Source: a virus (Duplodnaviria > Heunggongvirae > Uroviricota > Caudoviricetes). From it: a stretch of 12,568 bases of DNA. The notes below the pieces were generated by a model. It saw nothing but the letters and a program-made list of their open reading frames with translations, was not told the DNA's origin and did not search any database. Each line of letters begins with the position of its first letter. Positions within the stretch are counted from its first letter, which is position 1. The stretch lies in IMG/VR virus record IMGVR_UViG_2740892115_000002. One strand, given 5' to 3'. A program made the position numbers and the translations under genes. Of this stretch, positions 2,131 to 12,568 are shown piece after piece.

Positions 2131-2407
2131 GCCGTAACCGCTCCGGCTTCTTCCAGTGGTACGTAATTTTTGCTTTTTCCCTGTACGTCTGCACGCGGCG
2201 ACGGTAGGCCAGCATTTCAAGAACGCGGATCCGTATGTCGCGCATATCAACATCATTAAGCTGGATACCATCACGGCGCATCACCTCAGCAACAACACGC
2301 ACATAATTTTCAGCGGTCACGCTGTCCGGCTGTGTGGCCTGTTCGTCATGCTGCTGGCTGATTCCGGTAACGCGGCGGATTAATCCCAGTAGTTCGGCTT
2401 CTGTCAT
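2126..2407 (-). CDS. Hypothetical 93-aa protein adjacent to the cos region
   Basis: ORF with GGGGG Shine-Dalgarno-like sequence 4 nt upstream of the ATG. Basic C-terminus. The opposite-strand ORF 2156..2383 looks like a low-complexity antisense artifact. No family recognised. Confidence 0.5.
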   Translation of the reverse strand: MTEAELLGLIRRVTGISQQHDEQATQPDSVTAENYVRVVAEVMRRDGIQLNDVDMRDIRIRVLEMLAYRRRVQTYREKAKITYHWKKPERLRR

Positions 2408-2440
2408 TGTGCCCCCATCGCTCTGATAGTCTGGTGTCGT

Positions 2441-2670
2441 CGGGTCCTTCCTGGAATTATGGCCCGTTACGGGGCGGCGACCTCGCGGTTTTTCGCTATT
2501 TATGAGATTTTTTGAGGGGGTGGTTGTTGTTTAATTGTTTGGTATATCTAATTGATAAGTAAGGTAAAAATAAAATAAATACAACAACCTTACGATGTAT
2601 TTTGATGTCATTAATGTGAAAAAATTCAATGATATCAAATGGTTTTGTAAAAACACATGGTTGTTGTATC
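2441..2670 (+). other. cos-like site A (rightward orientation): lambda-type cosN plus GGTTGTTGT repeat set
   Basis: 2462-2487 gcccgttacg|gggcggcgacct|cgcg matches the lambda cosN and 12-nt cohesive end GGGCGGCGACCT as I recall it (core 2472-2483), followed by TTTTTCGCTATTTATGA as in the lambda left end. Inward repeats GGTTGTTGT at 2522-2530 and 2659-2667, inverted ACAACAACC at 2581-2589, with AT-rich spacers. Confidence 0.6.
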
Positions 2671-2844
2671 GCGTATTTGATGGCGTAACAGAAAGTGATT
2701 TTTAACTTTACCGCTCTGTAACTACGGATTATTCCATGCTGGCACGGAGAACGGCTACGGCATGACGCCACCCAGCCTATACAGAACAGTAAAGCCGATA
2801 AATTGTTAATCACGCGCAGCAATGCGTGTGATTTTTGCACACTT

Positions 2845-3038
2845 CCGGTTAACGGGTACGATGTCCGGTTTTAGTGTCTGTTTTTTGCGCATGTCCGGTT
2901 CATAGAAAGCATGTTTTTATATTTTTCATATGGTTAACTTGCAGAGAAACCGGACATGGATCCCGGAAAATTTTCATAAATAGTGAAAACGCGCGAGGTC
3001 GCCGCCCCGTAACGGGCCATAATTCCAGGAAGGACCCG
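2845..3038 (-). other. cos-like site B (leftward orientation): lambda-type cosN plus ATGTCCGGTT repeat set
   Basis: Read on the minus strand from 3038: cosN (core 2996-3007), then CGTTTTCACTATTTATGAAAATTTTCCGG, which is nearly identical to lambda sequence just inside cosN from memory. Then ATGTCCGGTT-type repeats at 2948-2957, 2891-2900 and 2861-2870 in a direct/inverted/inverted pattern, spaced roughly 50, 105 and 135 bp from cosN, reminiscent of lambda R3/R2/R1 with an AT-rich stretch between. Confidence 0.65.
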
Positions 3039-3039
3039 T

Positions 3040-3062
3040 AAAAAAGCCGGATTTCTCCGGCC
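3040..3062 (-). terminator. Rho-independent terminator after the late-type operon
   Basis: Stem gccgga/tccggc (3047-3052 / 3057-3062) with loop tttc. On the minus strand it is followed by a 7-U run (plus-strand A-run 3040-3046). Lies immediately after the stop of the 137-aa ORF. Confidence 0.7.
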
Positions 3063-3067
3063 TTGTC

Positions 3068-3481
3068 TCAGATGGTTTTCAGTATGCGATCGATGTCGCC
3101 GTCATCGCCCTGGTTTCTGCCATCGTATGCCATGCCAGCTGATACGGCTTGCGGGCTGTGCATGTCCATAAAGTTTTCAAAGGCTGCGGTAAGCTCTGGT
3201 GCAACCTTTGGGCGCTCCTGCTCTATGGTCATGTTCAGGATTTCACGAGCATTATCGACGCTAATACATGGCACGTTTGCCATTGCACGTAACAGCGGCT
3301 GATAGTCTTTATGCTCATGAAGCGCCATAATCGCATCAGCGCGCGGCTTGTCCTGCTCTTCCAGTTTGTTTAGTTGATATACGGCCTCATAGGTTGATAA
3401 ACCTCTGTCAGCCATTGCCCGCGCTTCGGCTTTAAATTTACTCGCCAGCGGTAGCGTCATGATGCTTTCATTCGTTGCCAT
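3068..3481 (-). CDS. Hypothetical 137-aa protein, last gene of the capsid operon
   Basis: ORF 12 nt downstream of the gpD-like gene on the same strand, followed by the terminator. No family recognised. Confidence 0.55.
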   Translation of the reverse strand: MATNESIMTLPLASKFKAEARAMADRGLSTYEAVYQLNKLEEQDKPRADAIMALHEHKDYQPLLRAMANVPCISVDNAREILNMTIEQERPKVAPELTAAFENFMDMHSPQAVSAGMAYDGRNQGDDGDIDRILKTI

Positions 3482-3493
3482 CGTTCCCCCTGC

Positions 3494-3829
3494 TTATCGG
3501 GCCAGCGGCTGAACGGATACGCCGGAACCCGCAAAGGCGGCGCATTTTTTCGCATCGGTGTCGACGCTCTCAGGCCAGTTAACGGCGGCAATATTGAATA
3601 TCCCCGTCTTGTAACACTGTGCTGATTTCTGCTTTGACGTGTCCACAGGGTACGAGGTCAGATAAACAGCCTTGCCAGATTCCTTACCATCCCACGGCTT
3701 AAACTCGCCATTGTCCGCCAGCATCAGCGGGGTAAATTCCTGAATAACGCCAGCATCAGCGGCAAAATGTACCAGCGTCGTGGCGACCTGCTGACTGCCT
3801 GCAAATAACTCAATGTATGGAGTGTCCAT
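3494..3829 (-). CDS. Head decoration protein, lambda gpD-like (111 aa)
   Basis: Size and motifs resemble lambda gpD from memory: TPLMLAD, WDG, YKTGIF...WPE, KKCAAFAGSGVSV versus lambda TPLMLD, WDG, YKSGTF...WPE, KKRTAFAGTAISIV. Confidence 0.75.
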   Translation of the reverse strand: MDTPYIELFAGSQQVATTLVHFAADAGVIQEFTPLMLADNGEFKPWDGKESGKAVYLTSYPVDTSKQKSAQCYKTGIFNIAAVNWPESVDTDAKKCAAFAGSGVSVQPLAR

Positions 3830-3840
3830 AGAATCCCCCG

Positions 3841-4896
3841 TTAACCAATTTTGACGGTAACAAATTTGCGAATATCTGCCGGAACCGGCTGCGGTGCGCT
3901 GTGCGTCTGCACGTACTCAATCGCCGGATCGCCGTCCTCAATCCAGTTTTTCGGGTAAAACATGTTTTGCGTTGCGCCCGTTCTTACTGCGTCCTGATCC
4001 ATAATCGCACCATAGGCCACCAGCCCTTTATTGTTGGTGTTGCCCAGGACAAGCAAATCAGGCTCAAGGAAATATTTTTCTGTGCCGTCGCTGTCAGTGT
4101 ATTTGCCGGAATAGACGATAAGGGCAATATCGCCCAGATAGCCTTTAAAGCTCACCACTTCGCCCAGGTTTTTACAGGCCAGCTCTGCGGCGGACTCTGA
4201 ACCACGGGAAAGATCGTACAGCTCACGGAATTTTTTAAAGCTGCGTAACGTTCGCCATACCTCAGCGCCCATAATCATGACGTTTGCGGGGCAACCAGCC
4301 TGATCGGCGTATAGTTCGATATCATAGATTGGATCGTGGGTTTCTTTGTCCTGCTCTGACCATTTTTTCCCGTCGGCCTGCTCTATGATGTTTTTTTCCG
4401 GTATCTTCCAGTCGATTTCATAGCGCTCTATGCCTTCGCCTTCAATGATGTTTTTTCCGGTCGTTACCGCATTTACCGCCAGCCATTCCACGCGCGCTTT
4501 TATGGCGTTTATCTGGCGGCGCATATTGCCAGTAATCAGGCGCATACGGCGATAGGTAGGGTCGTTAAGCTGTGCCGGATCTTCTCCAGCCATGCGCATG
4601 ATGGTTTTCGTTGGATCGATTTCGTGCTTTGGCTTCATGTAGCCAGGTTTAATCGTGCTGGTTTCGTACCCTTTATCGCGCTGAACCTGGCTACCCACCA
4701 TAGGCGAACAAAACGCCGACATGGTGACTTCTTCAATGTCCAGGGTATCCAGCATGATGTTTTGCGTGCTGAATGTCGCCACGTTCGGGAAAAACAGCGT
4801 GGTAAACAGCGGACTGAATTTAAATTCCGCAATATCCCCGCGATTCAGGTACGCAAAAAGCTGGTTAGTGTTAAGTGCCATTGCTTTTACTGTCAT
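3841..4896 (-). CDS. Major capsid protein, lambda gpE-like (351 aa)
   Basis: Multiple conserved blocks shared with lambda gpE as recalled: FKFSPLF..LFF, KPGYMKPKHE, EDPAQLNDPTYRRMR, WSEQDKETHDP, RGSESAAELACKNLGEVVSFKGYLGDIALIVYSGKY, VLGNTNNKGL.AYG, YPKNWIEDGDPA, SAP. Start overlaps the upstream ORF stop (TAATG). Confidence 0.88.
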   Translation of the reverse strand: MTVKAMALNTNQLFAYLNRGDIAEFKFSPLFTTLFFPNVATFSTQNIMLDTLDIEEVTMSAFCSPMVGSQVQRDKGYETSTIKPGYMKPKHEIDPTKTIMRMAGEDPAQLNDPTYRRMRLITGNMRRQINAIKARVEWLAVNAVTTGKNIIEGEGIERYEIDWKIPEKNIIEQADGKKWSEQDKETHDPIYDIELYADQAGCPANVMIMGAEVWRTLRSFKKFRELYDLSRGSESAAELACKNLGEVVSFKGYLGDIALIVYSGKYTDSDGTEKYFLEPDLLVLGNTNNKGLVAYGAIMDQDAVRTGATQNMFYPKNWIEDGDPAIEYVQTHSAPQPVPADIRKFVTVKIG

Positions 4897-5102
4897 TATT
4901 CACCCCCGTGAACCTGATTCATACCCAGCGCCGCGCGTAAATAGGCGCGTACCTGCCAGCCTGTTGACGGCTCAACCATCGCCAGCGGATCAAGTCCTGC
5001 CGCAATGCCTGCTTTTACGTTCTGCTGGTGGCGTTCCTTGAGCGCCTTCACGATGTCGGGGCTTATGTACACCGAAATACCGCCTTTTTTCTCTTCAGCC
5101 AT
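4896..5102 (-). CDS. Hypothetical 68-aa protein, first gene of the capsid operon
   Basis: AGAGGAA Shine-Dalgarno-like sequence upstream of the ATG at 5102. Stop overlaps the capsid start by 1 nt, suggesting translational coupling. No family recognised. Confidence 0.5.
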   Translation of the reverse strand: MAEEKKGGISVYISPDIVKALKERHQQNVKAGIAAGLDPLAMVEPSTGWQVRAYLRAALGMNQVHGGE

Positions 5103-5137
5103 AGTAAGAAATTCCTCTTTGACTTAAAAAATCATAA

Positions 5138-5187
5138 CTGGATGTTCATCCAGCTCTGATTATAATCAGGATTGCATTTTGTGCAAT
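5138..5187 (-). promoter_or_regulatory. Candidate late-operon promoter overlapped by three adjacent palindromes
   Basis: Palindromes ctggatg-tt-catccag (5138-5153), ctgattataatcag (5156-5169) and attgca-ttttg-tgcaat (5171-5187). On the minus strand, TATAAT (5164..5159) with TTGCAC about 16 nt upstream (5186..5181), placing a start site about 50 nt upstream of the ATG at 5102. Confidence 0.45.
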
Positions 5188-5265
5188 GATATTGAGTTGT
5201 GTTGCAAATTATGAAATGATTATCCCGATCATGTGTGTCAGTGCACCAAAAAGCCTCATATGCAA

Positions 5266-5305
5266 AAGCCCGATAAGCCACCTCTGACCTTATCGGGCTT
5301 TTTTA
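5266..5305 (+). terminator. Plus-strand rho-independent terminator with no annotated plus-strand gene upstream
   Basis: Stem aagcccgataag / cttatcgggctt with an 11-nt loop, followed by TTTTTTAT on the plus strand. Confidence 0.5.
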
Positions 5306-5517: not shown

Positions 5518-5940
5518 TTAAAACGGTATGTTATCCCCGTACGGATCATCATTCCCCGCCTGTTGTTTTGCCCTGTTCAGCGCGTCAGTAGCCTGGCCCT
5601 GTTGACCTTTTTTGCCGCCCAGTCGCGCCGTTCGCGCACTGATTACACTGTCTGCGATAACCTGCCAGCCCTGCCGCGTTTCTCCGTTCTGCCCAGTCCA
5701 CTGGCTGATCTGCATGTTACCCGCCACGCTCAGGAGTTCACCCTTGCGGTGCCTTTCCAGTGCTTCGGCCTGTCTGCCAAATGCCAGGACGGATAACCAC
5801 ATCGTCGCCGTTCCGTCATCTGCCTGGCTGCACGGAAGGGGGACCGCCATACGCGCCAGCGTCATCGGTGTGCCCTTGCTGGTCTGTTTTACCTGCGGGT
5901 CGTCCACCAGCCGCCCGTAAGCTGCTATCTGTGCTGTCAT
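5518..5940 (-). CDS. ssb: Single-stranded DNA-binding protein (SSB-like, 140 aa)
   Basis: OB-fold-like N-terminal region with SSB-like blocks (LSVLAFGRQAEALERHRKGELLSVAGNMQISQWTGQNGETRQGWQV), Gly/Gln-rich linker, and acidic C-terminal tail ending DDPYGDNIPF, comparable to the DDDIPF tail of E. coli SSB. Confidence 0.8.
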   Translation of the reverse strand: MTAQIAAYGRLVDDPQVKQTSKGTPMTLARMAVPLPCSQADDGTATMWLSVLAFGRQAEALERHRKGELLSVAGNMQISQWTGQNGETRQGWQVIADSVISARTARLGGKKGQQGQATDALNRAKQQAGNDDPYGDNIPF

Positions 5941-6215
5941 GATTCCACCTCTCCGGTTTTAACGTTGATGGTTGTTACCTGTTCCGCTTCGGCAATCTCC
6001 CGCTCTGTCAGCGTGGCAAAATTTGCCGCCGTCGTGGTCATGAATGCGCTTATCAGTTCGGGATGTGCTTTCGCGTATCCTTCCCCCGCGTGGCGGTCTA
6101 TCGTTCTGATTGCCACCTTTAAAGCGTGCTCTGTCATGTCTAACGCGCGATATTTCGGTTCTGTTCTGTCTCTGCGTTTTTTGAGTGATTTATTAAATTT
6201 CCCTGAAGTGTGCAT
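5937..6215 (-). CDS. Hypothetical 92-aa protein translationally coupled to ssb (start uncertain; internal Met at 6137 possible)
   Basis: Stop overlaps the ssb start (ATGA). Lies directly 3' of the iteron origin. No family recognised. Confidence 0.45.
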   Translation of the reverse strand: MHTSGKFNKSLKKRRDRTEPKYRALDMTEHALKVAIRTIDRHAGEGYAKAHPELISAFMTTTAANFATLTEREIAEAEQVTTINVKTGEVES

Positions 6216-6259
6216 ATTTATTTTTACCCCCTCGTTTAAAAAGTTTTGAGTTGTGCCTC

Positions 6260-6495
6260 CCCTTGTCTACCTTATCTACCTTAGTGGCCCTCATGCCAGT
6301 AATGGCGCGGCTTTCAGCGGGGTAGAGTGCTTTTATCCACTATCTACCCCGTGTCTACCTCCCTGTCTGATTCAGGTAAAATCAGGTAGAGAGGGTAGAT
6401 AGTGGGTAGACAGTAAAAAAAGGCTATCTACCTAACTTAATGCACTGAATTAAATGTATTTTTCTTTACTCAGGTAGACAGGGTAGACAGCAATT
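6260..6495. repeat. Replication origin-like iteron array (about 11 copies of the 7-bp unit TCTACC / GGTAGA in both orientations around an AT-rich core)
   Basis: gtctacc and atctacc at 6265-6280, ggtagag at 6321, atctacc and gtctacc at 6342-6359, ggtagag-ggtagat-ggtagac at 6386-6411, atctacc at 6426, ggtagac-ggtagac at 6474-6489, with an AT-rich segment at 6434-6471. Located immediately 3' of the primase-helicase gene, as in satellite and PICI origins. Confidence 0.7.
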
Positions 6496-6503
6496 ACAAA
6501 AAA

Positions 6504-8258
6504 TTATAAAAACGCGTCGCACTCGTCTGTTGTTATTGCGTTAGTCTGCGTTACCCCCTTAACTTTCCGCGTAATATATTCATGTCCGTAAACTTTTGCG
6601 GCAGGCTTCATAGCCTTTCCAAAGTCATTTACGTTTAGCGGTTTGCTCCTGCCTGCGTATGCCATAAACGCCAGATAGACGCGGTAAAGGCTGTTCCTGG
6701 TCGTGTACTTCACTGAATCGCCACCGCCCCCCATCATCAGGCCGCGCGCTTCCTCCAGAAAATTCAGGAACTGGCAAAACTCAATAACCGGATCCGTCTG
6801 TTGCTTTATTGCCAGTGCTTCATCACCGTCACGCTGTTCCAGTAGTAAAGCCCGTGCCTTCTCAGGGTCGGTAAAGTTCGCCAGCAATCGGCGGATAATG
6901 ACAGGGATTTCAGCCGCGATCTTTTCCGGTAGCTCCCTGTCTTTTTCGGCCTCACTGACGATATTGTCGAAACGGAAAATCACGCGACGACGTGCCACAC
7001 CTCCGGCCCGTTCGGTGAATATCATCGGGTTATTGTTGGTCGCCAGCACCACCGCCCTGATTACAGCCGTGAAACGCTTTTCGTATTTCGGGTTAATTTC
7101 CACGGGGTCACCGCCCGTGATTTTCTTGATGCCCGTTCCTTCGCCTGTATATTTCGGCTGGTCAGCCAGGACGATAAGACGACTCCCGACAACCTGCGCA
7201 CGTCCACCAGCATCATCAAGCGATGTCATTTCAGCGCTTACCGTGTTCTGTTTCCCTGCCAGAAGGCTGGCTATGTGCGTGAATGTACTTTTACCGCTCC
7301 CGCCGTCTCCGGTGGCCTCAATAAACATCTGCCAGTCGTACCGGTTCGCCATAATCATGTACAGCGCGGCACATATACGCATCATCTTGCGCGGGTCTTT
7401 TCCGGCTGCGTGCTCAAGCCATTTATGAAAGTTTGGCGCGTTATCGCGGATGTTCTCCCCTGGTGCTGGTGGCGTGTACTCAATGCCGTTGTGCGTGGTG
7501 ATCCAGTTCTCCGGCGTGTGCGGGGAAAATCCCCCCGTTTTCAGGTCAAGCGCACCATTGGCGAACGGCAGCAAATCGCCGGACGGCTCGCCCATTGGTT
7601 CGGCAATAACTTTTAACGCTTCCACGGCGTTATTGATTACGCGCTTGCTGAAAGTGGCCCTGTGCTCTGAATAGATCGCCACCATTTCGCGGCTAAGTTC
7701 CATTGTGCTGACCGGACACCATACCCCGCCGCGCCATACGTGAACGATTTCACTTTCAGGATGTACGCAAACGCCATCAAAGCGATCGGCAAGCAGCTGC
7801 GCGCGCTCACTGTCCGCCATCTGCGAAAGTTGCGCCTTTTGCTTTACCGGAAGCTCAATGACCAGACCATCAGAAAGATTCTGGCGCTCACGGGCCAGAT
7901 ATTCGCGCCAGTTCTCCACCTTCTGACCGTGCATACCATCAGGGTAAAAATTTGCATCCTGTACGCCTGCCGCCGCCAGCTTCTGGCCAATCGCCTTTAT
8001 CATTACTGGCGCAAGATATCCGGCCCTGAATATGCGCACGGATTTTCTGCCTTCCGGCACAATTTGCAGCTTATCCAGTTCTGATAACTGCTGCTCCCCA
8101 AGCCACACAGGAGGCTCATTATCTCCGGCCATACGCGCATCATGTTCCTGCCATTGTTTCGCGTGTGCCCAGGCATCACTACCCGCAAAAATAATGACTT
8201 CTGTTCCTTTGTGTTTTATGCCGCGTGACTGCTGTTTTACGTTCGGTGCCAGTTTCAT
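6504..8258 (-). CDS. Replication initiator, P4 alpha / D5-family primase-helicase-like (584 aa)
   Basis: Walker A motif GDGGSGKST and downstream D5/P4-type helicase-like blocks. Size and position (upstream of iterons) fit a pri-rep gene. AGGGG Shine-Dalgarno-like sequence; start overlaps the upstream ORF stop (ATGA). Confidence 0.8.
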   Translation of the reverse strand: MKLAPNVKQQSRGIKHKGTEVIIFAGSDAWAHAKQWQEHDARMAGDNEPPVWLGEQQLSELDKLQIVPEGRKSVRIFRAGYLAPVMIKAIGQKLAAAGVQDANFYPDGMHGQKVENWREYLARERQNLSDGLVIELPVKQKAQLSQMADSERAQLLADRFDGVCVHPESEIVHVWRGGVWCPVSTMELSREMVAIYSEHRATFSKRVINNAVEALKVIAEPMGEPSGDLLPFANGALDLKTGGFSPHTPENWITTHNGIEYTPPAPGENIRDNAPNFHKWLEHAAGKDPRKMMRICAALYMIMANRYDWQMFIEATGDGGSGKSTFTHIASLLAGKQNTVSAEMTSLDDAGGRAQVVGSRLIVLADQPKYTGEGTGIKKITGGDPVEINPKYEKRFTAVIRAVVLATNNNPMIFTERAGGVARRRVIFRFDNIVSEAEKDRELPEKIAAEIPVIIRRLLANFTDPEKARALLLEQRDGDEALAIKQQTDPVIEFCQFLNFLEEARGLMMGGGGDSVKYTTRNSLYRVYLAFMAYAGRSKPLNVNDFGKAMKPAAKVYGHEYITRKVKGVTQTNAITTDECDAFL

Positions 8259-8554
8259 TTTTTACCCCTGAATCCTTTAATCATGGTTTTCATCTTCTGA
8301 ATATTGGCGCGTGCTTTCTCCCTGCTGGTGGGCACGTTACGCGGTACGGCCTGCACAAGAGAAAAATCACGGTCGAACTGATAAACAGGCATCACGCAAT
8401 CATATTCGTAGCCTTCACGACGGTAGGTTACGCGCCGTTCCTCCACGCCCTTAATCATTACCGTGCCGCCGTACTTATCGCGGTAAATATCACCGCGCAT
8501 GAATTTAGTGCGAGTTTTGCCACTGGCAGTTAAGCCAGAATATTTAAGTTTCAT
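8255..8554 (-). CDS. Hypothetical 99-aa basic protein, translationally coupled to the primase gene
   Basis: ORF ending in an ATGA overlap with the primase start. Lys/Arg-rich. No family recognised. Confidence 0.55.
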   Translation of the reverse strand: MKLKYSGLTASGKTRTKFMRGDIYRDKYGGTVMIKGVEERRVTYRREGYEYDCVMPVYQFDRDFSLVQAVPRNVPTSREKARANIQKMKTMIKGFRGKK

Positions 8555-8559
8555 TATTT

Positions 8560-8793
8560 TTATTCTCCGGTGTGGGGCGCTTTATACTGGTCGTGTAATG
8601 TCTCTATTTCCTGCAACTCATTTATTACAGGCTCAAGAAGCGTTATTAATGCCGTGACAATCCTTGATTTCTGTTTATCACGTTCATTATCTCCAAGCGT
8701 TTCAAGACATATGCGCAATATTTCCAACATATTTTCACTGTGAGAAAGTGCAAGAAATGCGCGGTCTATTGTTTCGTGGTAAATATCACGCAT
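8560..8793 (-). CDS. Hypothetical 77-aa protein
   Basis: Tightly packed same-strand ORF in the operon upstream of the primase gene. Confidence 0.5.
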   Translation of the reverse strand: MRDIYHETIDRAFLALSHSENMLEILRICLETLGDNERDKQKSRIVTALITLLEPVINELQEIETLHDQYKAPHTGE

Positions 8794-8794
8794 A

Positions 8795-9229
8795 TTAATC
8801 CCCGTCCGTCGTTTTTCTTAAAATAACCTCTGTCACGAAATCAGCATAATCGGCGGCGATATTCAGTACATCAAGCCCCGTTGATTTATATTCTCTCGTG
8901 GAAAGTAAGAAAAAATCCGCTCTAATAAGCTCTGGCATTGACGAAAGCGCATCAGCCGCATCATCAGGAACGCCGGAAAATTCCTGTTTCAGGGAATTAA
9001 AACGATCATCACGCATAACCCCCCCATTTTCACAATCAGCAACAAGAATATTTTTAGCGTCATTCAGCGACCGCGTTGCGATGTATCGGATACATTCCAG
9101 GGCGAACTGTGTCCGGTCTTTCTGTTCTTCTCCCTGCGCAAGCTCTGCCGTGCATTCAATATCAATAAGCGCGTGCATCAGCGTAGTGAGTGCGGCGGCG
9201 GCTGCGTCCGGTGTGGTTTTATTGCACAT
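8795..9229 (-). CDS. Hypothetical 144-aa protein (the ORF extends to 9283, but a GGAGGGG Shine-Dalgarno-like sequence favours the ATG at 9229)
   Basis: ggaggggtacATGtgc context at 9229. This start overlaps the stop of the upstream 76-aa ORF by about 11 nt. Confidence 0.5.
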   Translation of the reverse strand: MCNKTTPDAAAAALTTLMHALIDIECTAELAQGEEQKDRTQFALECIRYIATRSLNDAKNILVADCENGGVMRDDRFNSLKQEFSGVPDDAADALSSMPELIRADFFLLSTREYKSTGLDVLNIAADYADFVTEVILRKTTDGD

Positions 9230-9449
9230 GTACCCCTCCGCATTTTTTTTCGTTAGAAATAAGCGTTCTTCTTTCCTGTTCATCGCTCAGGAATACGCAG
9301 ACCTCACCGCTAAGGCGTTTAAGTAAGCCGATGATTGCCCCTGATTCGCTGTCGGTCATCATGCCAGGGTAATCCTCTGCCAGTGCGCAAATAACTTCGA
9401 TTTGGTGGGCGCGTTCTGCTGCCTGTTGTAGTGTGATTTCCTGGCTCAT
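9219..9449 (-). CDS. Hypothetical 76-aa protein
   Basis: ORF whose start overlaps the stop of the upstream frame (ATGA at 9446-9449), part of the tightly coupled operon. Confidence 0.5.
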   Translation of the reverse strand: MSQEITLQQAAERAHQIEVICALAEDYPGMMTDSESGAIIGLLKRLSGEVCVFLSDEQERRTLISNEKKCGGVHVQ

Positions 9450-10732
9450 AAGCCTACCCCCTGACGAATACGGGCAGCAAATACCATCACGCAGCCAGCC
9501 GGAGATTGCTGGCGTGCTTCCTGTTCGCTGGTGGCCTCAATGGTAATCACGCGCGGTTGTGCCGTGCTCAGGGCGATAAAACGCCAGATGTATTTATTCA
9601 GGTTGTGCGAGTCCCGCCCTTGCGGGTGTGTGGTATGATTTAACATAGCTACCTCGATACTTTCGCTATCGTTGGTGGTTAGAAGCCCTGCGAGTGGTAA
9701 CGACACTTGCGGGGCTTTGCATTTATGCACCTTGATAATCTCAAGGTGTGGCCCACTATATGCTTTAGGTGTGGCCCACGTCAAGGGTTTTATTTGTGCT
9801 TTTTCTGTGTATACTGTCCCCCACCAATCCAACAGAGGAATAGAAATGGCAACGGGTACAACAAACGCAAAATCACAAGCTCTAAAGGCTCGTGTACCAC
9901 ACGAAATAGTAAACGCCATGGAATCAGTGAAAGAATCAGGCGAAAGCACATCACAATTCATCATTGCGTCAATGCAAGGCGAGATCAAACGCCGCCAGCG
10001 CCGCAAGGCCAAAGAGCAGGAGTAACCATCACCAGCGCCGTGGTGTGAGTAACTACGGCGCATTGCTATGCAGGACAACACAATGACCGATAAAGAATTG
10101 ACCAAAACATTATCACCGGCACGGAAAAGACGGCGCAGAAAGATAGAGCATGAATCAGAAAGATTCGCGCCATGTGCTTTTGCCCTTGAGCAATTCCTTA
10201 AAGAGTACAGGGAAAAGCGCTCATTGCAGGTATGGCAACGAACTGAACCTGACTGATTGCATTGCCCACCAGCCGCAAATGTGGCATTGTTGGCAATGCT
10301 CATGCGTTGGGGATAACGTGTAGCTTGTGTCGAGGGGCCACCGTAGCGGGTGGCCTTTGTTTTGCCCGTTATTCGGCAATTGTGGCGCTTCTCCACATGG
10401 TTGATATAATCCCACTGCTCAGATTCATTTTTTGCGCAGTAGGTTAATTGTTCACAAAGGCGCTCCGGCAACGGGGCGCTTTTTGTTTTTATTAGTTTGT
10501 AGAAACCTGACTCAGAGATAATGCTCATATTCTGATTGCCGTCAGGGGTGTAAGTTAAATTTACTCCCTTTTTATCATCAAACATCTGCAACGCTCTGGC
10601 GTTAACAATATTGGTTTCACTCCCGCCAGTAAGGCCGGAAATAACCGGAATAATTTCGGCAAAATTTTGCAGATTCTGTTTTTCAGGACGAACGAAGCCC
10701 CGCCCTTGTTCGGGAGAATATCCAGTATTCAT
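9446..10732 (-). CDS. Uncertain 428-aa open frame; likely a real N-terminal domain (about 115 aa from 10732) and/or a short C-terminal gene (possible start 9643, 66 aa), with the middle unlikely to be coding
   Basis: The N-terminal part has normal protein-like composition (NLTYTPDGNQNMSIISESGFYKLI, faintly like phage antirepressor N-domains). The central part is Cys/Arg/Ser-rich and antisense to two plus-strand small ORFs with good Shine-Dalgarno-like sequences. No in-frame stop until 9446. Confidence 0.3.
   Translation of the reverse strand: MNTGYSPEQGRGFVRPEKQNLQNFAEIIPVISGLTGGSETNIVNARALQMFDDKKGVNLTYTPDGNQNMSIISESGFYKLIKTKSAPLPERLCEQLTYCAKNESEQWDYINHVEKRHNCRITGKTKATRYGGPSTQATRYPQRMSIANNATFAAGGQCNQSGSVRCHTCNERFSLYSLRNCSRAKAHGANLSDSCSIFLRRLFRAGDNVLVNSLSVIVLSCIAMRRSYSHHGAGDGYSCSLALRRWRRLISPCIDAMMNCDVLSPDSFTDSMAFTISCGTRAFRACDFAFVVPVAISIPLLDWWGTVYTEKAQIKPLTWATPKAYSGPHLEIIKVHKCKAPQVSLPLAGLLTTNDSESIEVAMLNHTTHPQGRDSHNLNKYIWRFIALSTAQPRVITIEATSEQEARQQSPAGCVMVFAARIRQGVGL
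9744..9779. promoter_or_regulatory. Divergent control region with two direct 13-bp repeats AGGTGTGGCCCAC (9744-9756, 9767-9779)
   Basis: Repeats 23 bp apart in the intergenic region between the minus-strand small-ORF operon and the plus-strand RHH-like gene. A TATACT -10-like hexamer at 9811-9816 lies upstream of the plus-strand ATG at 9846. Confidence 0.5.
9846..10025 (+). CDS. Small ribbon-helix-helix-like DNA-binding protein (59 aa), candidate island repressor or regulator
   Basis: AGAGGAA Shine-Dalgarno-like sequence 5 nt upstream of the ATG. Sequence pattern of a beta-strand followed by two helices (KSQALKARVPHEIVNAMESVKE...STSQFIIASMQ) and a basic tail RRQRRKAKEQE. Family assignment is by pattern only. 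Confidence 0.5.
   Translation: MATGTTNAKSQALKARVPHEIVNAMESVKESGESTSQFIIASMQGEIKRRQRRKAKEQE
10083..10256 (+). CDS. Possible small basic protein (57 aa from the ATG at 10083; the ORF is open from 10068)
   Basis: AGGA 7 nt upstream of the ATG at 10083. Contains an RKRRRRK stretch. Weak support. Confidence 0.3.
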   Translation: MTDKELTKTLSPARKRRRRKIEHESERFAPCAFALEQFLKEYREKRSLQVWQRTEPD

Positions 10733-10784
10733 GGTTAGATCTCTGTATTAGTGGATGGGTGGCGGCTGTGTGCCGCCAGCCTGA

Positions 10785-10973
10785 TTAGTGAACTGCCTCG
10801 CAGCTGTCCTTCCATGCCAGAACTTCGGATAAAGACCAGCCAACGGAACGACCGCCCAGCTTACGCCGTGATGGGAATTGTCCGGCTTTTTCCAGGCGGT
10901 ACCGACATGAGCGGCTCAGGCCTGTAAGTTGCTGACATTCTTTTTCACGTATAAAGCGATCTGTGCTTAACAC
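10785..10973 (-). CDS. alpA: AlpA-family (phage Xis/MerR-like) transcriptional regulator, 62 aa
   Basis: Matches the AlpA pattern as recalled: LTGLSRSCRYRLEKAGQFPSRRKLGGRSVGWSLSEVLAW versus AlpA TG..R.TIY......FP....LG.KSVGW...EI..W. Position next to the integrase is typical. Confidence 0.75.
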   Translation of the reverse strand: MLSTDRFIREKECQQLTGLSRSCRYRLEKAGQFPSRRKLGGRSVGWSLSEVLAWKDSCEAVH

Positions 10974-11254
10974 AATTCCCCCTTTGTTGTTTCTTAAAGA
11001 GTCATTGGGTGGATTATTGGGTTGGGTTGTGTCGGATTGTGTCAGGGTGTTTGTGGAATGGCAAACACTGGCGGCGGTCGTTTTACAGAAGCAGGGGAAA
11101 TGAGAATAAAAACTCTTTTAATTCATTATGATGCAAAGGCATAAAATTTTACTTTTACGCCTTTTTTACATATTTTTAAGAGTGATTCGCCAGTGTATAA
11201 AAAAACAGTACACCTATAAAAATCAAATGGTTATTACGATGGCTGATTTTTAAC

Positions 11255-11313
11255 CCGTTGTTCCATTTTGTTCCTTGTTGTTCGTCGTTGTGTCTCGTTG
11301 TTTCACGTTGTCC
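11255..11313. repeat. Six tandem copies of a CGTTGT-containing unit at about 10-bp periodicity, directly 3' of the integrase gene
   Basis: ccgttgttcc / ttttgttcc / ttgttgttcg / tcgttgtgtc / tcgttgtttc / acgttgtcc, with units starting near 11256, 11267, 11277, 11286, 11296 and 11306. A related GT-rich set (ggttgtgtc, gattgtgtc) lies at about 11025-11055 near the alpA 5' region. Confidence 0.6.
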
Positions 11314-11338
11314 GCATCCTGAAAAATCGCAAAAAAAA

Positions 11339-12568
11339 TTATATTTCTCTGGCTATTGGCAATGTGGTTACGTTTTCATGTGTTCCCGCCAGTATCCCTA
11401 ACCGCTCCGTCCACATATCCAGCGCGTCACGTTTCGCATCCAGATAACGGGAATGGTTATAGACTCGTTGCATCCCTGGCATCTGATGACCTGTAAGCTG
11501 CTCCACGACGTGAGGATCCACGCCTAAATCGTTCAGCATCGTTGTAAAGGTGCGCCGGATGTCATGCAGTGACCAGTGAGGGTGTTTTAGCCTCCTGTGC
11601 GCTAATCTGCCGTACTGCGACACGCTTGTTTCCTGTTTCACTTCCCCCAGCAATAAGCCCGTGTGCCTGTTCTGCTCCACCAGCTGCGTGACGAACGGCA
11701 GTATTGCTTCCGGTATGGGCCGGAATATTGCCACCTTCGTTTTGCTGTGTTCTTTCGGCACGGTCCAGAGCATTTCGGTAAAATCCCACTCGCTGATCTC
11801 CGATAACCTCAGTTCTACCGTCCGGCATCCGAAAACAATCAGGAGGCGGATTAGTGCGACGTAGTAAGGGGAAAATATTTTTTTGTCCAGTGCCTGCAAT
11901 AATTCGCCAAGTTCTTTGGTGCTTAAGACGCGCTCGCTTATATCCGGTTTTTTCCCAACGTCCGCCACACTCATATCATCAAGAACGTTGCTGATTGCAT
12001 AGCGCCGCCTCCGGCAGAACTTAAGCGCCTGTTTGCACGTCTGTAGCAAGAATCCGGCAGTAACAGGCGTTCGCTTTGCCACCTGGTCAAAACAGGCCAG
12101 CCAGTGCCGTAGCTCGCATTTATCCAGCGGCATAGCACCAATGTGCTGTATTACGTGATTATTAAGGCGCTTTTTCAGGGCGGCATAATCCACGCGGTTT
12201 TCCTTTGCGTACGACTCAAGCCAGTAGGTGAGCGCATCGCCAACCGTTACCGGCTTTAACGCTTCCTGTACGGTGTAATTCATTTCATGACGTGGATTTT
12301 TCCCCTCTGCCAGCCATGCGCGACACTGGGCGGCTTTTTCCCTGGCTGATTTCAGGCTCAGATCAGGATAATTTCCCAGCTTAATGCGTTCCGGTGGTGC
12401 CCCCCTTCCCGTTCCGGCCCTGTAAGTGAAATACCAGGTTAAAAGGCCACTGGTTGAATGCCTGACGCTCAGGTTTCCACCGTCATTAAGAAAGGCTGTT
12501 TTTTGGGCGGGTGTGCCGTTGATTTTCCTCAGCTGTGTATCGCTCAGTTTGTTAAGTGCTCTGCTCAT
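11339..12568 (-). CDS. int: Tyrosine recombinase, P4-type integrase (409 aa; start codon at the window edge)
   Basis: N-terminal arm-binding-like region typical of P4-family integrases (DGGNLSV...W.F.YR......R..LG.YP..SLKSAREKA...AWLAEGKNP). C-terminal catalytic region includes HDIRRTF and HxxR...Y (RVYNHSRY). The start lies on the last base of the window, so an upstream in-frame start cannot be excluded. Confidence 0.9.
   Translation of the reverse strand: MSRALNKLSDTQLRKINGTPAQKTAFLNDGGNLSVRHSTSGLLTWYFTYRAGTGRGAPPERIKLGNYPDLSLKSAREKAAQCRAWLAEGKNPRHEMNYTVQEALKPVTVGDALTYWLESYAKENRVDYAALKKRLNNHVIQHIGAMPLDKCELRHWLACFDQVAKRTPVTAGFLLQTCKQALKFCRRRRYAISNVLDDMSVADVGKKPDISERVLSTKELGELLQALDKKIFSPYYVALIRLLIVFGCRTVELRLSEISEWDFTEMLWTVPKEHSKTKVAIFRPIPEAILPFVTQLVEQNRHTGLLLGEVKQETSVSQYGRLAHRRLKHPHWSLHDIRRTFTTMLNDLGVDPHVVEQLTGHQMPGMQRVYNHSRYLDAKRDALDMWTERLGILAGTHENVTTLPIAREI

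What the first reader, a model, noticed from the sequence alone, without database searches (positions are those of the whole stretch)
8255..9643. Operon of five small, translationally coupled ORFs of unknown function upstream of the primase gene
ORFs of about 66, 76, 144, 77 and 99 aa are packed with overlapping or adjacent stops and starts (ATGA at 9446-9449 and 8255-8258) and feed into the primase gene. In satellites this position usually holds helper-sensing, derepression or helper-interference functions. I recognise none of them, so they are candidates for undescribed helper-manipulation or anti-phage activities.
Basis: inference. Interest (0 to 1): 0.48.

Follow-up and report, generated by a model that had tools for sequence, protein, structure and literature searches.

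The report
Early operon of a known satellite island

Summary
Five minus-strand ORFs of 66, 76, 144, 77 and 99 aa run head-to-tail into the primase gene (junctions -4, -11, +1, +5, -4 nt). Only the first start is misplaced: 9646, not 9643.

The window is an allele of EcCICFT073, the prototype Gram-negative phage-inducible chromosomal island (PICI), between phoQ and roxA.
- ORF A is an Icd-like protein, related to P1 Icd and to a P4 ORF.
- ORF E is RgdR (DUF4222), orthologue of CFT073 C1493, a published activator of LEE/type III secretion.
- ORFs B, C and D are acidic, helical proteins in function-unknown PHROG families, with no detectable link to P4 epsilon/Cnr/orf151 or to defence models.

Across PICIs, Icd-like and DUF4222 are fixed bookends and the middle genes vary. 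B is missing in some relatives. C is two modules, split or fused by a G-tract, and is split in CFT073 itself.

The helper-manipulation idea is untested. Published work attributes EcCICFT073's lambda interference to rppA. However, a preprint describes a six-gene unit in ECOR61 that appears to be the same operon type and causes cell death when a phage protein is expressed.

Verdict: mostly known and modestly interesting, with three open genes.

The parts
9755..9784 (-). Sigma-70-like promoter of the operon: -35 TTGACG (9784-9779), 18-nt spacer, -10 TATAGT (9760-9755)
   Evidence: Best promoter match in 6300-11400, 10 of 12 positions. TTGAC is conserved at the same place in the Nissle, S19-651 and L007 alleles. 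Function is not shown.
9744..9779 (-). Two exact copies of GTGGGCCACACCT (9779-9767 and 9756-9744), 23 bp apart, bracketing the -10 hexamer; candidate operators
   Evidence: These are the only two exact copies in the window. They sit within a 22-nt direct repeat. A related island (L007) has the same geometry with a different palindrome, TGTGCGCACA, twice. The binding protein is unknown.
9683..9717 (-). Conserved hairpin in the 5' leader, followed by the near-invariant CTTCTAACCAnCAACG
   Evidence: The leader 9630-9750 folds at -34.6 kcal/mol, z = -4.2. In 9 island alleles the outer stem is 85% paired, against at most 52% when the partner is slid, and 3 pairs show compensatory changes. No Rfam family matches.
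9446..9646 (-). ORF A, 66 aa, basic (pI 10.0): Icd-like protein, first cistron
   Evidence: NF033153 E 1.4e-19. BLASTP against P1 Icd gives 35% identity over 43 aa, E 2e-6. P1 Icd and a P4 65-aa ORF hit the same model. The protein is identical to CFT073 WP_000931908.
9219..9449 (-). ORF B, 76 aa, acidic (pI 4.8): phrog_1478, function unknown
   Evidence: phrog_1478 E 2.9e-28. It is 52.5% identical to the 63-aa gene of the O157 island, which is also phrog_1478. It is absent from the Shigella (L004), L007, L014 and L017 relatives. Megablast finds it in 260 of 5426 complete E. coli genomes.
9243..9250 (-). A8 tract at the end of B; alleles with A7 encode a B-C fusion of 217-221 aa
   Evidence: Fusion proteins P0001, P0018 and P0028 read ...ISNEK|NAEGYMCNK.... 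Some fusions could be homopolymer sequencing errors.
8795..9229 (-). ORF C, 144 aa, acidic (pI 4.4): phrog_2512, made of an N-module (1-71) and a C-module (72-144, starting at Met72), with a hypervariable segment around residues 25-57
   Evidence: phrog_2512 E 5e-54, and each half matches its own PHROG. A profile search of 1.84 billion representatives found only 55 clusters, many consisting of one half only. The allelic mosaic is visible. Megablast finds it in 930 of 5426 genomes.
9019..9025 (-). G7 tract between the two modules of C; G8 or G9 alleles split C into two ORFs
   Evidence: The window and L017 have G7 and an intact C. CFT073, Nissle, S19-651 and L004 have G8, and L014 has G9; all of these are split. 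In-frame ENGGG variants appear.
8560..8793 (-). ORF D, 77 aa, acidic (pI 4.95): phrog_2196, a helical hairpin, function unknown
   Evidence: phrog_2196 E 8.6e-37. The AlphaFold2 model has pLDDT 93.3 with helices 2-32 and 37-71. dN/dS is 0.13-0.24. It is distantly related to the 80-aa gene of the O157 island. Megablast finds it in 786 of 5426 genomes.
8255..8554 (-). ORF E, 99 aa, basic (pI 10.2): RgdR (DUF4222), ATGA-coupled to the replicase gene
   Evidence: PF13973 E 2.5e-24. It differs from CFT073 C1493 at 10 of 99 residues (sequences, counted by hand) and carries RGD at 20-22 and K35. C1493 and ECs1581 activate type III secretion (PMC3378721). A 4-nt overlap with the replicase gene is seen in all related islands examined.
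6504..8258 (-). Primase-helicase (pri-rep), the last gene of the unit
   Evidence: Pfam D5_N, DUF5906 and Pox_D5. It is 40% identical to P4 alpha over 440 aa.

Best explanation
Shown: the five ORFs plus the primase gene form the early (replication-side) operon of an EcCICFT073-type phage-inducible chromosomal island. ORF A is an Icd-like protein and ORF E is RgdR. Icd-like and DUF4222 are the two constant ends of this operon across E. coli PICIs. B, C and D are exchangeable, and C is split by a frameshift in CFT073 itself. Inferred: the unit is transcribed from its own sigma-70-type promoter at 9784-9755. That promoter carries two operator-like repeats and is followed by a structured leader of about 100 nt. 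AlpA is the published activator of EcCICFT073 genes and may also drive it. Ribosomes would then pass from gene to gene through overlapping or abutting stops and starts. ORF A would be both the entry cistron for this coupling, as P1 icd is for ant, and an inhibitor of host cell division once the island is induced. ORF E is a small basic protein with weak DNA binding that alters host transcription (LEE1, motility); its ATGA overlap would tie its translation to that of the replicase. B, C and D are small acidic helical proteins. They most likely act by binding host or helper-phage proteins during take-over, are dispensable for island induction, replication and transfer, and vary between islands because their targets vary.
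For: Identity of the element: 100% identity to E. coli HM670 and 98.4% to CFT073 over 8255-9900, at the same phoQ-roxA site. EcCICFT073 is described in PMC6092414 and PMC6739421. Families. RgdR function and C1493: PMC3378721; PMC6092414 states that RgdR is encoded by all analysed E. coli PICIs. Constant ends and variable middle: L007, L004, L014, L015, L016 and L017. The 4-nt DUF4222/replicase overlap is kept with three different replicase annotations: DNA primase family, DUF927 and RepA helicase. Dispensability: C is split in CFT073, which is nevertheless induced and transferred. B is absent from several relatives. A pri-ori clone maintains a thermosensitive plasmid at 44 C, unlike the pri-delta-ori and delta-pri-ori controls. 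Purifying selection. Acidic or basic character. D is a confident helical hairpin. Promoter, operators and leader. The P1 precedent, icd ATGA-coupled to ant1 and 'apparently required for expression of ant', comes from the record annotation.
Against: No expression, coupling or binding data exist for this allele. The promoter and operators are consensus or pattern matches only. Division inhibition is shown for P1 Icd, not for this 66-aa protein. The 'protein-binding modulator' role of B, C and D rests only on size, charge, helicity and variability. The B-C model was unusable (pLDDT 45), and fold searches with D gave nothing better than E 0.1. B shows no substitutions among the compared alleles, so selection on it could not be measured. 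I did not see the construct boundaries of the published pri-ori clone. C may still work as two separate halves in CFT073, so the split does not prove that it is dispensable.
Confidence: 0.6

Rival explanations
1. The operon is a phage-triggered cell-death or superinfection-exclusion module. [quoted passage not shown]
For: Silas et al. (bioRxiv 10.1101/2023.04.06.535777) report that phage orf24 stops growth of ECOR61. [quoted passage not shown] The three suppressor genes have the same lengths (186 and 192 nt) and the same 8-nt and 1-nt overlaps as Icd-h61-h63 of the O157-type island L015. L015's h63 belongs to the B family and its h80 to the D family. The hypervariable segment of C would fit an arms race.
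Against: I could not compare the ECOR61 sequence itself; the match rests on gene lengths and overlaps. The rebuilt effect was described as muted. Transposon hits may be polar. The phenotype could simply be induction of the satellite by a phage-encoded inducer, since uncontrolled EcCICFT073 replication already harms growth. For lambda, deleting rppA restores plaquing on EcCICFT073 carriers. No PADLOC model matches. This window carries C in place of h61, and its Icd-like protein is only about 48% identical to L015's.
Confidence: 0.25
2. The small proteins are replication accessories of the primase-helicase, for example loaders, origin binders or copy-number regulators analogous to P4 Cnr, which sits directly upstream of the alpha gene.
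For: They lie immediately upstream of the replicase, and E is ATGA-coupled to it. P4 has cnr (ORF106) directly upstream of alpha. That Cnr regulates copy number is from my own knowledge of the P4 literature.
Against: The same DUF4222 and D genes precede three differently annotated replicases: primase family, DUF927 and RepA helicase. A pri-ori clone supports plasmid maintenance. There is no similarity to Cnr/DUF5375, orf151 or epsilon. B, C and D come and go between islands that carry the same primase.
Confidence: 0.1
3. B, C or D is the helper-derepression or helper-sensing function of the island, the counterpart of P4 epsilon/Ash, which inactivates the helper's repressor.
For: Position is analogous: P4 has vis - Icd-like ORF - epsilon - orf151 - cnr - alpha. 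Related PICIs carry Ant/BRO antirepressors and 'ash family' genes in this neighbourhood.
Against: No sequence or profile similarity to epsilon, and no Pfam hit of any kind for B, C or D at E 0.1. In the published work EcCICFT073 is induced by its helpers rather than inducing them: alpA expression rises only in induced lysogens. C is frameshifted in the functional prototype.
Confidence: 0.08
4. B, C and D, like RgdR, are host-directed lysogenic-conversion regulators that tune chromosomal genes (virulence, motility) and have no role in the satellite's own cycle.
For: RgdR deletion in O157 lowers type III secretion and RgdR affects motility, so at least this gene has a phenotype without deliberate helper induction. 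PICIs also carry PerC-type LEE regulators.
Against: Nothing links B, C or D to host regulation. They are acidic and show no DNA-binding domain. The genes sit inside the replication-side operon rather than in the accessory region of the island.
Confidence: 0.12

Closest known systems
EcCICFT073, the prototype Gram-negative phage-inducible chromosomal island of E. coli CFT073 (Fillol-Salom et al. 2018, 2019)
   Same: Same chromosomal site (phoQ-roxA) and same gene order: int, alpA, YlcI/YnfO-like gene, Icd-like, small ORFs, DUF4222, pri, SSB, capsid-like and decoration-like genes, two lambda-type cosN sites. Identity is 96.8-98.4%. Proteins A, B and D are identical.
   Different: C is intact here (G7) but split in CFT073 (G8). 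E differs at 10 of 99 residues. The PerC gene of CFT073 has no counterpart here (the window-CFT073 alignment breaks between 5304 and 5612). Only the last 22 codons of rppA remain between the two cos sites.
RgdR (ECs1581) of E. coli O157:H7 O-island 51 and its CFT073 orthologue C1493 (Flockhart et al. 2012)
   Same: ORF E is 99 aa with a DUF4222 domain, RGD at 20-22 and K35. It is 86% identical to the O157 protein that carries all six diagnostic ECs1581 residues and about 90% identical to C1493.
   Different: Residues 27, 45 and 61 follow the inactive ED1a variant. Activity of this allele is untested, and RgdR's role in the island's own cycle is unknown.
P1 immI operon (c4 RNA - icd - ant) and the P4 left operon (cI RNA - Icd-like ORF - epsilon - orf151 - cnr - alpha)
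   Same: In each case an Icd-family ORF is the first cistron behind a promoter and a structured leader and is coupled to downstream genes (ATGA in P1 and here). In P4 the operon ends in a homologous primase.
   Different: No C4/CI-type RNA is detectable here; the leader holds only a 35-nt hairpin. The downstream genes (B, C, D, E) are unrelated to ant, epsilon, orf151 and cnr.
ECOR61 'prophage-encoded superinfection exclusion system' (Silas et al., bioRxiv 2023)
   Same: Six linked genes starting with an Icd-like gene and including a DNA primase. By gene lengths and overlaps it matches the O157-type island operon, which holds B-family (phrog_1478), D-family and DUF4222 genes.
   Different: Different Icd-like allele, a 61-aa gene instead of C, and a DUF927-type replicase in the matching O157 island. 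The trigger orf24 has not been tested on this island, and no sequence-level comparison with ECOR61 was possible.

Membership tests
EcCICFT073-type PICI (Gram-negative phage-inducible chromosomal island) | int, alpA and pri-rep in one orientation, island of roughly 11 kb at a PICI-specific attachment site | tested here: met
   int 11339..12568, alpA 10785..10973 and pri 6504..8258 are all on the minus strand, between phoQ and (in the matching genomes) roxA.
EcCICFT073-type PICI (Gram-negative phage-inducible chromosomal island) | Near-identity to the published element | tested here: met
   98.4% over 8255-9900 and 96.8% over 2961-5304 and 5612-12568 against CFT073.
EcCICFT073-type PICI (Gram-negative phage-inducible chromosomal island) | Lambda-type cos sites plus rppA for redirected packaging | tested here: inconclusive
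   Two exact GGGCGGCGACCT sites lie at 2472-2483 (+) and 2996-3007 (-). However, only residues 123-144 of RppA are matched.
EcCICFT073-type PICI (Gram-negative phage-inducible chromosomal island) | Induction and transfer by a helper phage | not testable with these tools
   Shown for the CFT073 allele in PMC6092414, not for this one.
Icd-like host cell division inhibitor (NCBIfam NF033153; P1 Icd) | Score above the curated cut-off of the family model | tested here: met
   69.9 bits against a cut-off of 25, E 1.4e-19. P1 Icd itself scores 52.6 and the P4 ORF 76.1.
Icd-like host cell division inhibitor (NCBIfam NF033153; P1 Icd) | Direct similarity to P1 Icd | tested here: met
   35% identity over 43 aa, pairwise E 2e-6. 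tblastn against 50,697 phage records did not reach P1 at E <= 1.
Icd-like host cell division inhibitor (NCBIfam NF033153; P1 Icd) | First cistron, translationally coupled to the next gene | tested here: met
   ATGA overlap with B at 9449-9446. P1 icd and ant1 overlap in the same way. Coupling itself was not measured.
Icd-like host cell division inhibitor (NCBIfam NF033153; P1 Icd) | Control by an upstream C4/CI-type antisense RNA | tested here: not met
   No Rfam match at gathering score in the window, nor at E <= 5 in 9300-11400.
Icd-like host cell division inhibitor (NCBIfam NF033153; P1 Icd) | Inhibits cell division when expressed | not testable with these tools
   Needs an expression experiment.
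RgdR / DUF4222 | DUF4222 domain above the Pfam gathering score | tested here: met
   85 bits against 27.
RgdR / DUF4222 | 99 aa, RGD at residues 20-22 and K35 (residues that matter for T3S activation in PMC3378721) | tested here: met
   Sequence MKLKYSGLTASGKTRTKFMRGD...IKG; criteria.
RgdR / DUF4222 | Orthologous position in an OI-51/EcCICFT073-type island, directly upstream of the replicase | tested here: met
RgdR / DUF4222 | Activates LEE1/type III secretion and represses motility | not testable with these tools
   Shown for ECs1581 and C1493 only.
P4 helper-derepression and copy-control proteins (epsilon/Ash, orf151, Cnr/DUF5375) | Sequence or profile similarity of B, C, D or E to these proteins | tested here: not met
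   tblastn of A-E against P4 gave nothing below E 0.1. hhalign of the C family against orf151 and epsilon gave probabilities of 0.09 and 0.36. No Pfam family passed its cut-off for B, C or D; the only hit at E <= 0.1 was a sub-threshold Mad3_BUB1_I match for D.
Known anti-phage defence systems (PADLOC-DB 2.0) | Match to any defence-protein model | tested here: not met
   No family at E <= 1 for A-E or for the B-C fusion.
ECOR61 cell-death unit (Silas et al. preprint) | Icd-like gene followed by small genes and a primase, six linked genes in all | tested here: met
   A, B, C, D, E and pri make six genes.
ECOR61 cell-death unit (Silas et al. preprint) | Homology of the small genes to those hit by suppressor insertions | tested here: inconclusive
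Its gene lengths and overlaps equal those of L015, whose h63 belongs to the B family, while h61 has no counterpart in the window.
ECOR61 cell-death unit (Silas et al. preprint) | Growth arrest on expression of phage orf24 | not testable with these tools
   Experiment needed.

The most novel reading that the evidence does not exclude
The Icd-like...RgdR operon of EcCICFT073-type islands could be a phage-sensing abortive module. The variable acidic proteins (B, the two-module C with its hypervariable segment, and D) would be interchangeable sensors or adaptors that recognise helper or competitor phage proteins and release the Icd-like toxin and runaway replication. The G- and A-tracts would switch the sensors between fused and split forms.
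Probability: 0.15. Interest if true: 0.6.

Novelty: already known. Interest (0 to 1): 0.3.

Why it matters
The finding re-discovers the early operon of a model satellite, so the finding itself adds little. Its value lies in what remains open. B, C and D occur in roughly 5-17% of complete E. coli genomes, yet they were not among the genes screened when EcCICFT073 was searched for interference functions; only genes downstream of the origin were cloned for that screen. A preprint suggests that the same operon type can kill the cell in response to a phage protein. If that holds here, Gram-negative PICIs would have a second anti-phage layer, independent of packaging, built from swappable small proteins. 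It might also explain why the virulence regulator RgdR is welded to the replicase gene in every island examined.

Tried and rejected
- **Structure of B and C.** I modelled a natural B-C fusion (P0001). The model had mean pLDDT 45 and was unusable; it only suggests an all-helical protein.
- **Fold search with D.** The confident D model was searched against the PDB and BFVD. The best E-values were 0.1-0.2, all generic helical hairpins, so this was uninformative. The third fold search was not used.
- **Remote homology of C.** A profile search against 1.84 billion representatives found only 55 clusters. The long hits were read-through gene calls or a low-complexity repeat protein, and their Pfam scans gave nothing relevant.
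- **Similarity to P4.** tblastn of A-E against P4, and hhalign of the C family against orf151 and epsilon, found nothing.
- **Phage genomes.** tblastn of A, C, D and E against 50,697 phage genomes found one satellite-like record for A and nothing for the others. These genes appear specific to satellites and islands.
- **Defence models.** PADLOC gave no match.
- **Leader RNA.** Rfam gave no match for a C4/CI-type RNA in the leader.
- **Genome-wide locus scan.** A scan of species-representative genomes with the primase returned only three loci.
- **Literature.** Searches on AlpA antitermination in PICIs and on YlcI/YnfO found nothing useful.
- **The 428-aa ORF 9446..10732.** I rejected it as a gene. 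It is not annotated in RefSeq. Its start matches an AntA/AntB N-terminus, its middle lies antisense to the YlcI/YnfO-like gene and the next gene, and its end is ORF A.

Full report
**Observation**

On the minus strand the window carries five consecutive ORFs followed by a 584-aa primase-helicase gene at 6504..8258:

| ORF | Coordinates | Length |
|---|---|---|
| A | 9446..9646 | 66 aa |
| B | 9219..9449 | 76 aa |
| C | 8795..9229 | 144 aa |
| D | 8560..8793 | 77 aa |
| E | 8255..8554 | 99 aa |

The only coordinate error is the outer end: ORF A begins with ATG at 9646, not 9643.

The ORFs are genes rather than chance frames. Each matches a protein family at E <= 1e-19, and RefSeq annotates all five in identical genomes. 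dN/dS against four diverged alleles is 0.13-0.24 for D, 0.30-0.34 for E, 0.05-0.45 for C and 0.15-0.30 for A. B shows no substitutions in those alleles, so it could not be tested this way.

**What the element is**

The stretch 8255-9900 is 100% identical to E. coli HM670 and several other strains and 98.4% identical to CFT073. It lies at the same site between phoQ and roxA. That CFT073 island is EcCICFT073, the prototype Gram-negative phage-inducible chromosomal island (PICI). It is induced by lambda, phi80 and a resident prophage, activated by AlpA, replicated by pri-rep, and packaged through cos sites with the help of RppA (PMC6092414, PMC6739421). The finding is therefore the early, replication-side operon of a well-studied satellite.

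**The five proteins**

- **A** is basic (pI 10.0) and is an Icd-like protein: NCBIfam NF033153 scores 69.9 bits against a cut-off of 25. It aligns directly with P1 Icd (35% identity over 43 aa, E 2e-6). P1 Icd and a 65-aa ORF just downstream of the P4 cI region hit the same model.
- **E** is strongly basic (pI 10.2) and carries DUF4222. It is the orthologue of CFT073 C1493 and O157 ECs1581, named RgdR. RgdR activates the LEE1 promoter and type III secretion, represses motility and binds DNA weakly and non-specifically (PMC3378721). This allele keeps RGD at 20-22 and K35, the positions that paper found to matter.
- **B, C and D** are acidic (pI 4.8, 4.4, 4.95). They belong to PHROGs 1478, 2512 and 2196, all of unknown function, and every database homologue is labelled hypothetical.
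- **D** models confidently as a two-helix hairpin (pLDDT 93), but fold searches returned only generic hairpins.
- **The B-C model** failed (pLDDT 45).
- **The C family** is tiny: 55 clusters among 1.84 billion representatives. It consists of two modules that often occur as separate genes of about 75 aa, the second starting at Met72. Its alleles form a mosaic with a hypervariable segment around residues 25-57.

**Comparative anatomy**

I examined related islands from E. coli, Shigella and Serratia (L004, L005, L007, L012-L017). All share the same order:

int - alpA - (Ant/BRO gene or its remnant) - (often a divergent YlcI/YnfO or DUF3950 gene) - Icd-like - small ORFs - replicase

In the E. coli and Shigella islands, DUF4222 always comes immediately before the replicase gene and overlaps it by 4 nt. 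This holds whether the replicase is annotated as a DNA primase family protein, a DUF927 protein or a RepA-family helicase. The Serratia island has an Icd-like ORF but none of B-E.

Icd-like and DUF4222 are therefore constant bookends, and the genes between them are exchangeable:
- B is absent from L004, L007, L014 and L017.
- D is absent from L007 and L016.
- C is replaced by other genes in L007 and L015.

The O157:H7 island (L015) reads Icd - h61 - h63 - h80 - RgdR - DUF927. Its h63 belongs to the B family (52.5% identity, phrog_1478) and its h80 to the D family.

Two homopolymer tracts change the protein set:
- The G-tract between the modules of C is G7 here and in L017 (intact C). It is G8 or G9 in CFT073, Nissle, S19-651, L004 and L014 (split C).
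- Alleles with A7 instead of A8 at the end of B encode a 217-221-aa B-C fusion.

**Control region**

The best sigma-70-like site in the region is TTGACG-18-TATAGT at 9784-9755. It is bracketed by the only two exact copies of GTGGGCCACACCT in the window. A related island has the same geometry with a different palindrome, which is how operators with a matching regulator tend to behave.

The leader of about 100 nt folds well (z = -4.2). It contains a hairpin at 9717-9683 whose outer stem shows three compensatory changes among nine alleles. An almost invariant CTTCTAACCAnCAACG follows the hairpin. No Rfam family matches, C4 included.

The 428-aa ORF upstream of and in frame with A is not a gene. 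It combines an Ant-type N-terminus, the antisense of the YlcI/YnfO-like gene and the next gene, and ORF A. RefSeq calls the upstream part a truncated pseudogene in other strains.

**How it most likely works**

- *Shown.* The unit is the early operon of this PICI, with the gene identities given above. A pri-ori fragment maintains a thermosensitive plasmid at 44 C, unlike its pri-delta-ori and delta-pri-ori controls. CFT073 transfers normally with a split C. The middle genes are therefore not core replication or transfer functions.
- *Inferred.* On induction the promoter fires and ribosomes are handed from A to pri through the overlaps. A serves as entry cistron, as P1 icd does for ant, and blocks host division. 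RgdR is made in step with the replicase. B, C and D bind host or phage proteins.

I put 0.6 on this combined account. The identity part is near certain and the role of B, C and D is weak.

**For and against an anti-phage or helper-manipulation role**

*Against:*
- Deleting rppA alone restores lambda plaques on EcCICFT073 carriers. The authors cloned only the genes downstream of the origin for their interference screen, so the five ORFs were not among the genes screened.
- No similarity exists to P4 epsilon, orf151 or Cnr, or to PADLOC models.

*For:*
- Silas et al. report that phage gene orf24 arrests growth of ECOR61 through a prophage unit of six linked genes that includes a DNA primase.
- Suppressor insertions fell in an Icd-like gene and two small genes, and removing the Icd-like gene abolished the effect.
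- The published coordinates of those three genes give lengths of 186 and 192 nt and overlaps of 8 and 1 nt, exactly as in Icd-h61-h63 of L015.

I therefore infer, without having the ECOR61 sequence, that the ECOR61 system is the O157-type version of this operon. The effect could equally be plain satellite induction by a phage-encoded inducer.

**Novelty and score**

The element, its gene map, RgdR and the Icd-like annotation are all published or routinely annotated, so I rate the finding as already known. What remains open is the function of B, C and D, which megablast finds in 260, 930 and 786 of 5426 complete E. coli genomes respectively, and RgdR's role in the island's own cycle. Interest is 0.3. 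The most novel reading not excluded is a modular phage-sensing death switch, at a probability of about 0.15.

Noticed in passing
window 2441-3038 (cosN at 2472-2483 + and 2996-3007 -): Two exact lambda-type cosN sequences (GGGCGGCGACCT) lie in 65-bp inverted repeats that flank about 470 bp of AT-rich DNA. In CFT073 and HM670 this interval holds rppA; here only its last 22 codons are recognisable (2776..2711). This allele may be unable to redirect packaging. Only 14 of 5426 complete E. coli genomes cover at least 80% of the 2400-3100 query; the eight listed are full-length at 96.6-98.9% identity.
   Followed up: partly
window 9744-9784 (-) and 9846-10025 (+): The operon promoter carries two exact 13-mers, GTGGGCCACACCT, around the -10 hexamer. 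It faces a divergent YlcI/YnfO-family gene (NF041551, E 4e-18). A related island with a DUF3950 gene in that place has a different palindrome in the same geometry. This looks like a repressor-operator pair, although the 2018 paper called the existence of a repressor in Gram-negative PICIs unclear.
   Followed up: partly
window 9683-9717 (-), tail to about 9668: A conserved leader hairpin with three compensatory base-pair changes among nine island alleles is followed by the near-invariant CTTCTAACCAnCAACG. It matches no Rfam family. In some islands the same DNA lies inside a longer Icd-like or upstream ORF, so coding constraint is not excluded.
   Followed up: partly
window 9446-10732 (-): A 428-aa open frame is a composite, not a gene. 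Its first 49 residues are 84% identical to the N-terminus of an AntA/AntB antirepressor. Its middle is antisense to the YlcI/YnfO-like gene and to the next gene on the plus strand. Its end is ORF A. RefSeq annotates the upstream part as a truncated pseudogene in Nissle 1917 and S19-651.
   Followed up: yes
window 9019-9025 and 9243-9250: Homopolymer tracts sit at module boundaries. G7 versus G8/G9 toggles C between one protein and two. A8 versus A7 toggles B and C between separate proteins and a fusion. This could be contingency-type variation or transcriptional slippage, and some database fusions may be sequencing errors.
   Followed up: partly
window 8255-8258, and loci L007, L014-L017: The DUF4222 (RgdR) gene overlaps the replicase start by ATGA in every island examined, although the replicases are annotated as three different families (DNA primase family, DUF927, RepA helicase). 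Module exchange seems to happen exactly at this junction.
   Followed up: partly
window 10456-10483 (+) and 10083-10256 (+): A strong intrinsic terminator (12-bp stem plus T-run) closes a short plus-strand unit made of the YlcI/YnfO-like gene and a 57-62-aa gene (phrog_21027). This unit is inserted, in the opposite orientation, between alpA and the operon.
   Followed up: no
window 11016-11050 and 11287-11311: Iterated GTTGTGTC-type repeats lie upstream of alpA and near the int start. They could be AlpA or integrase arm-type binding sites.
   Followed up: no
window 3494-4896 (-): The island encodes a lambda-E-like major capsid protein (351 aa) and a head-decoration-like protein (111 aa), but no other head genes are visible. 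The literature reports no phenotype for the capsid-like gene c1499, and c1499 or c1500 deletions left transfer unchanged.
   Followed up: no
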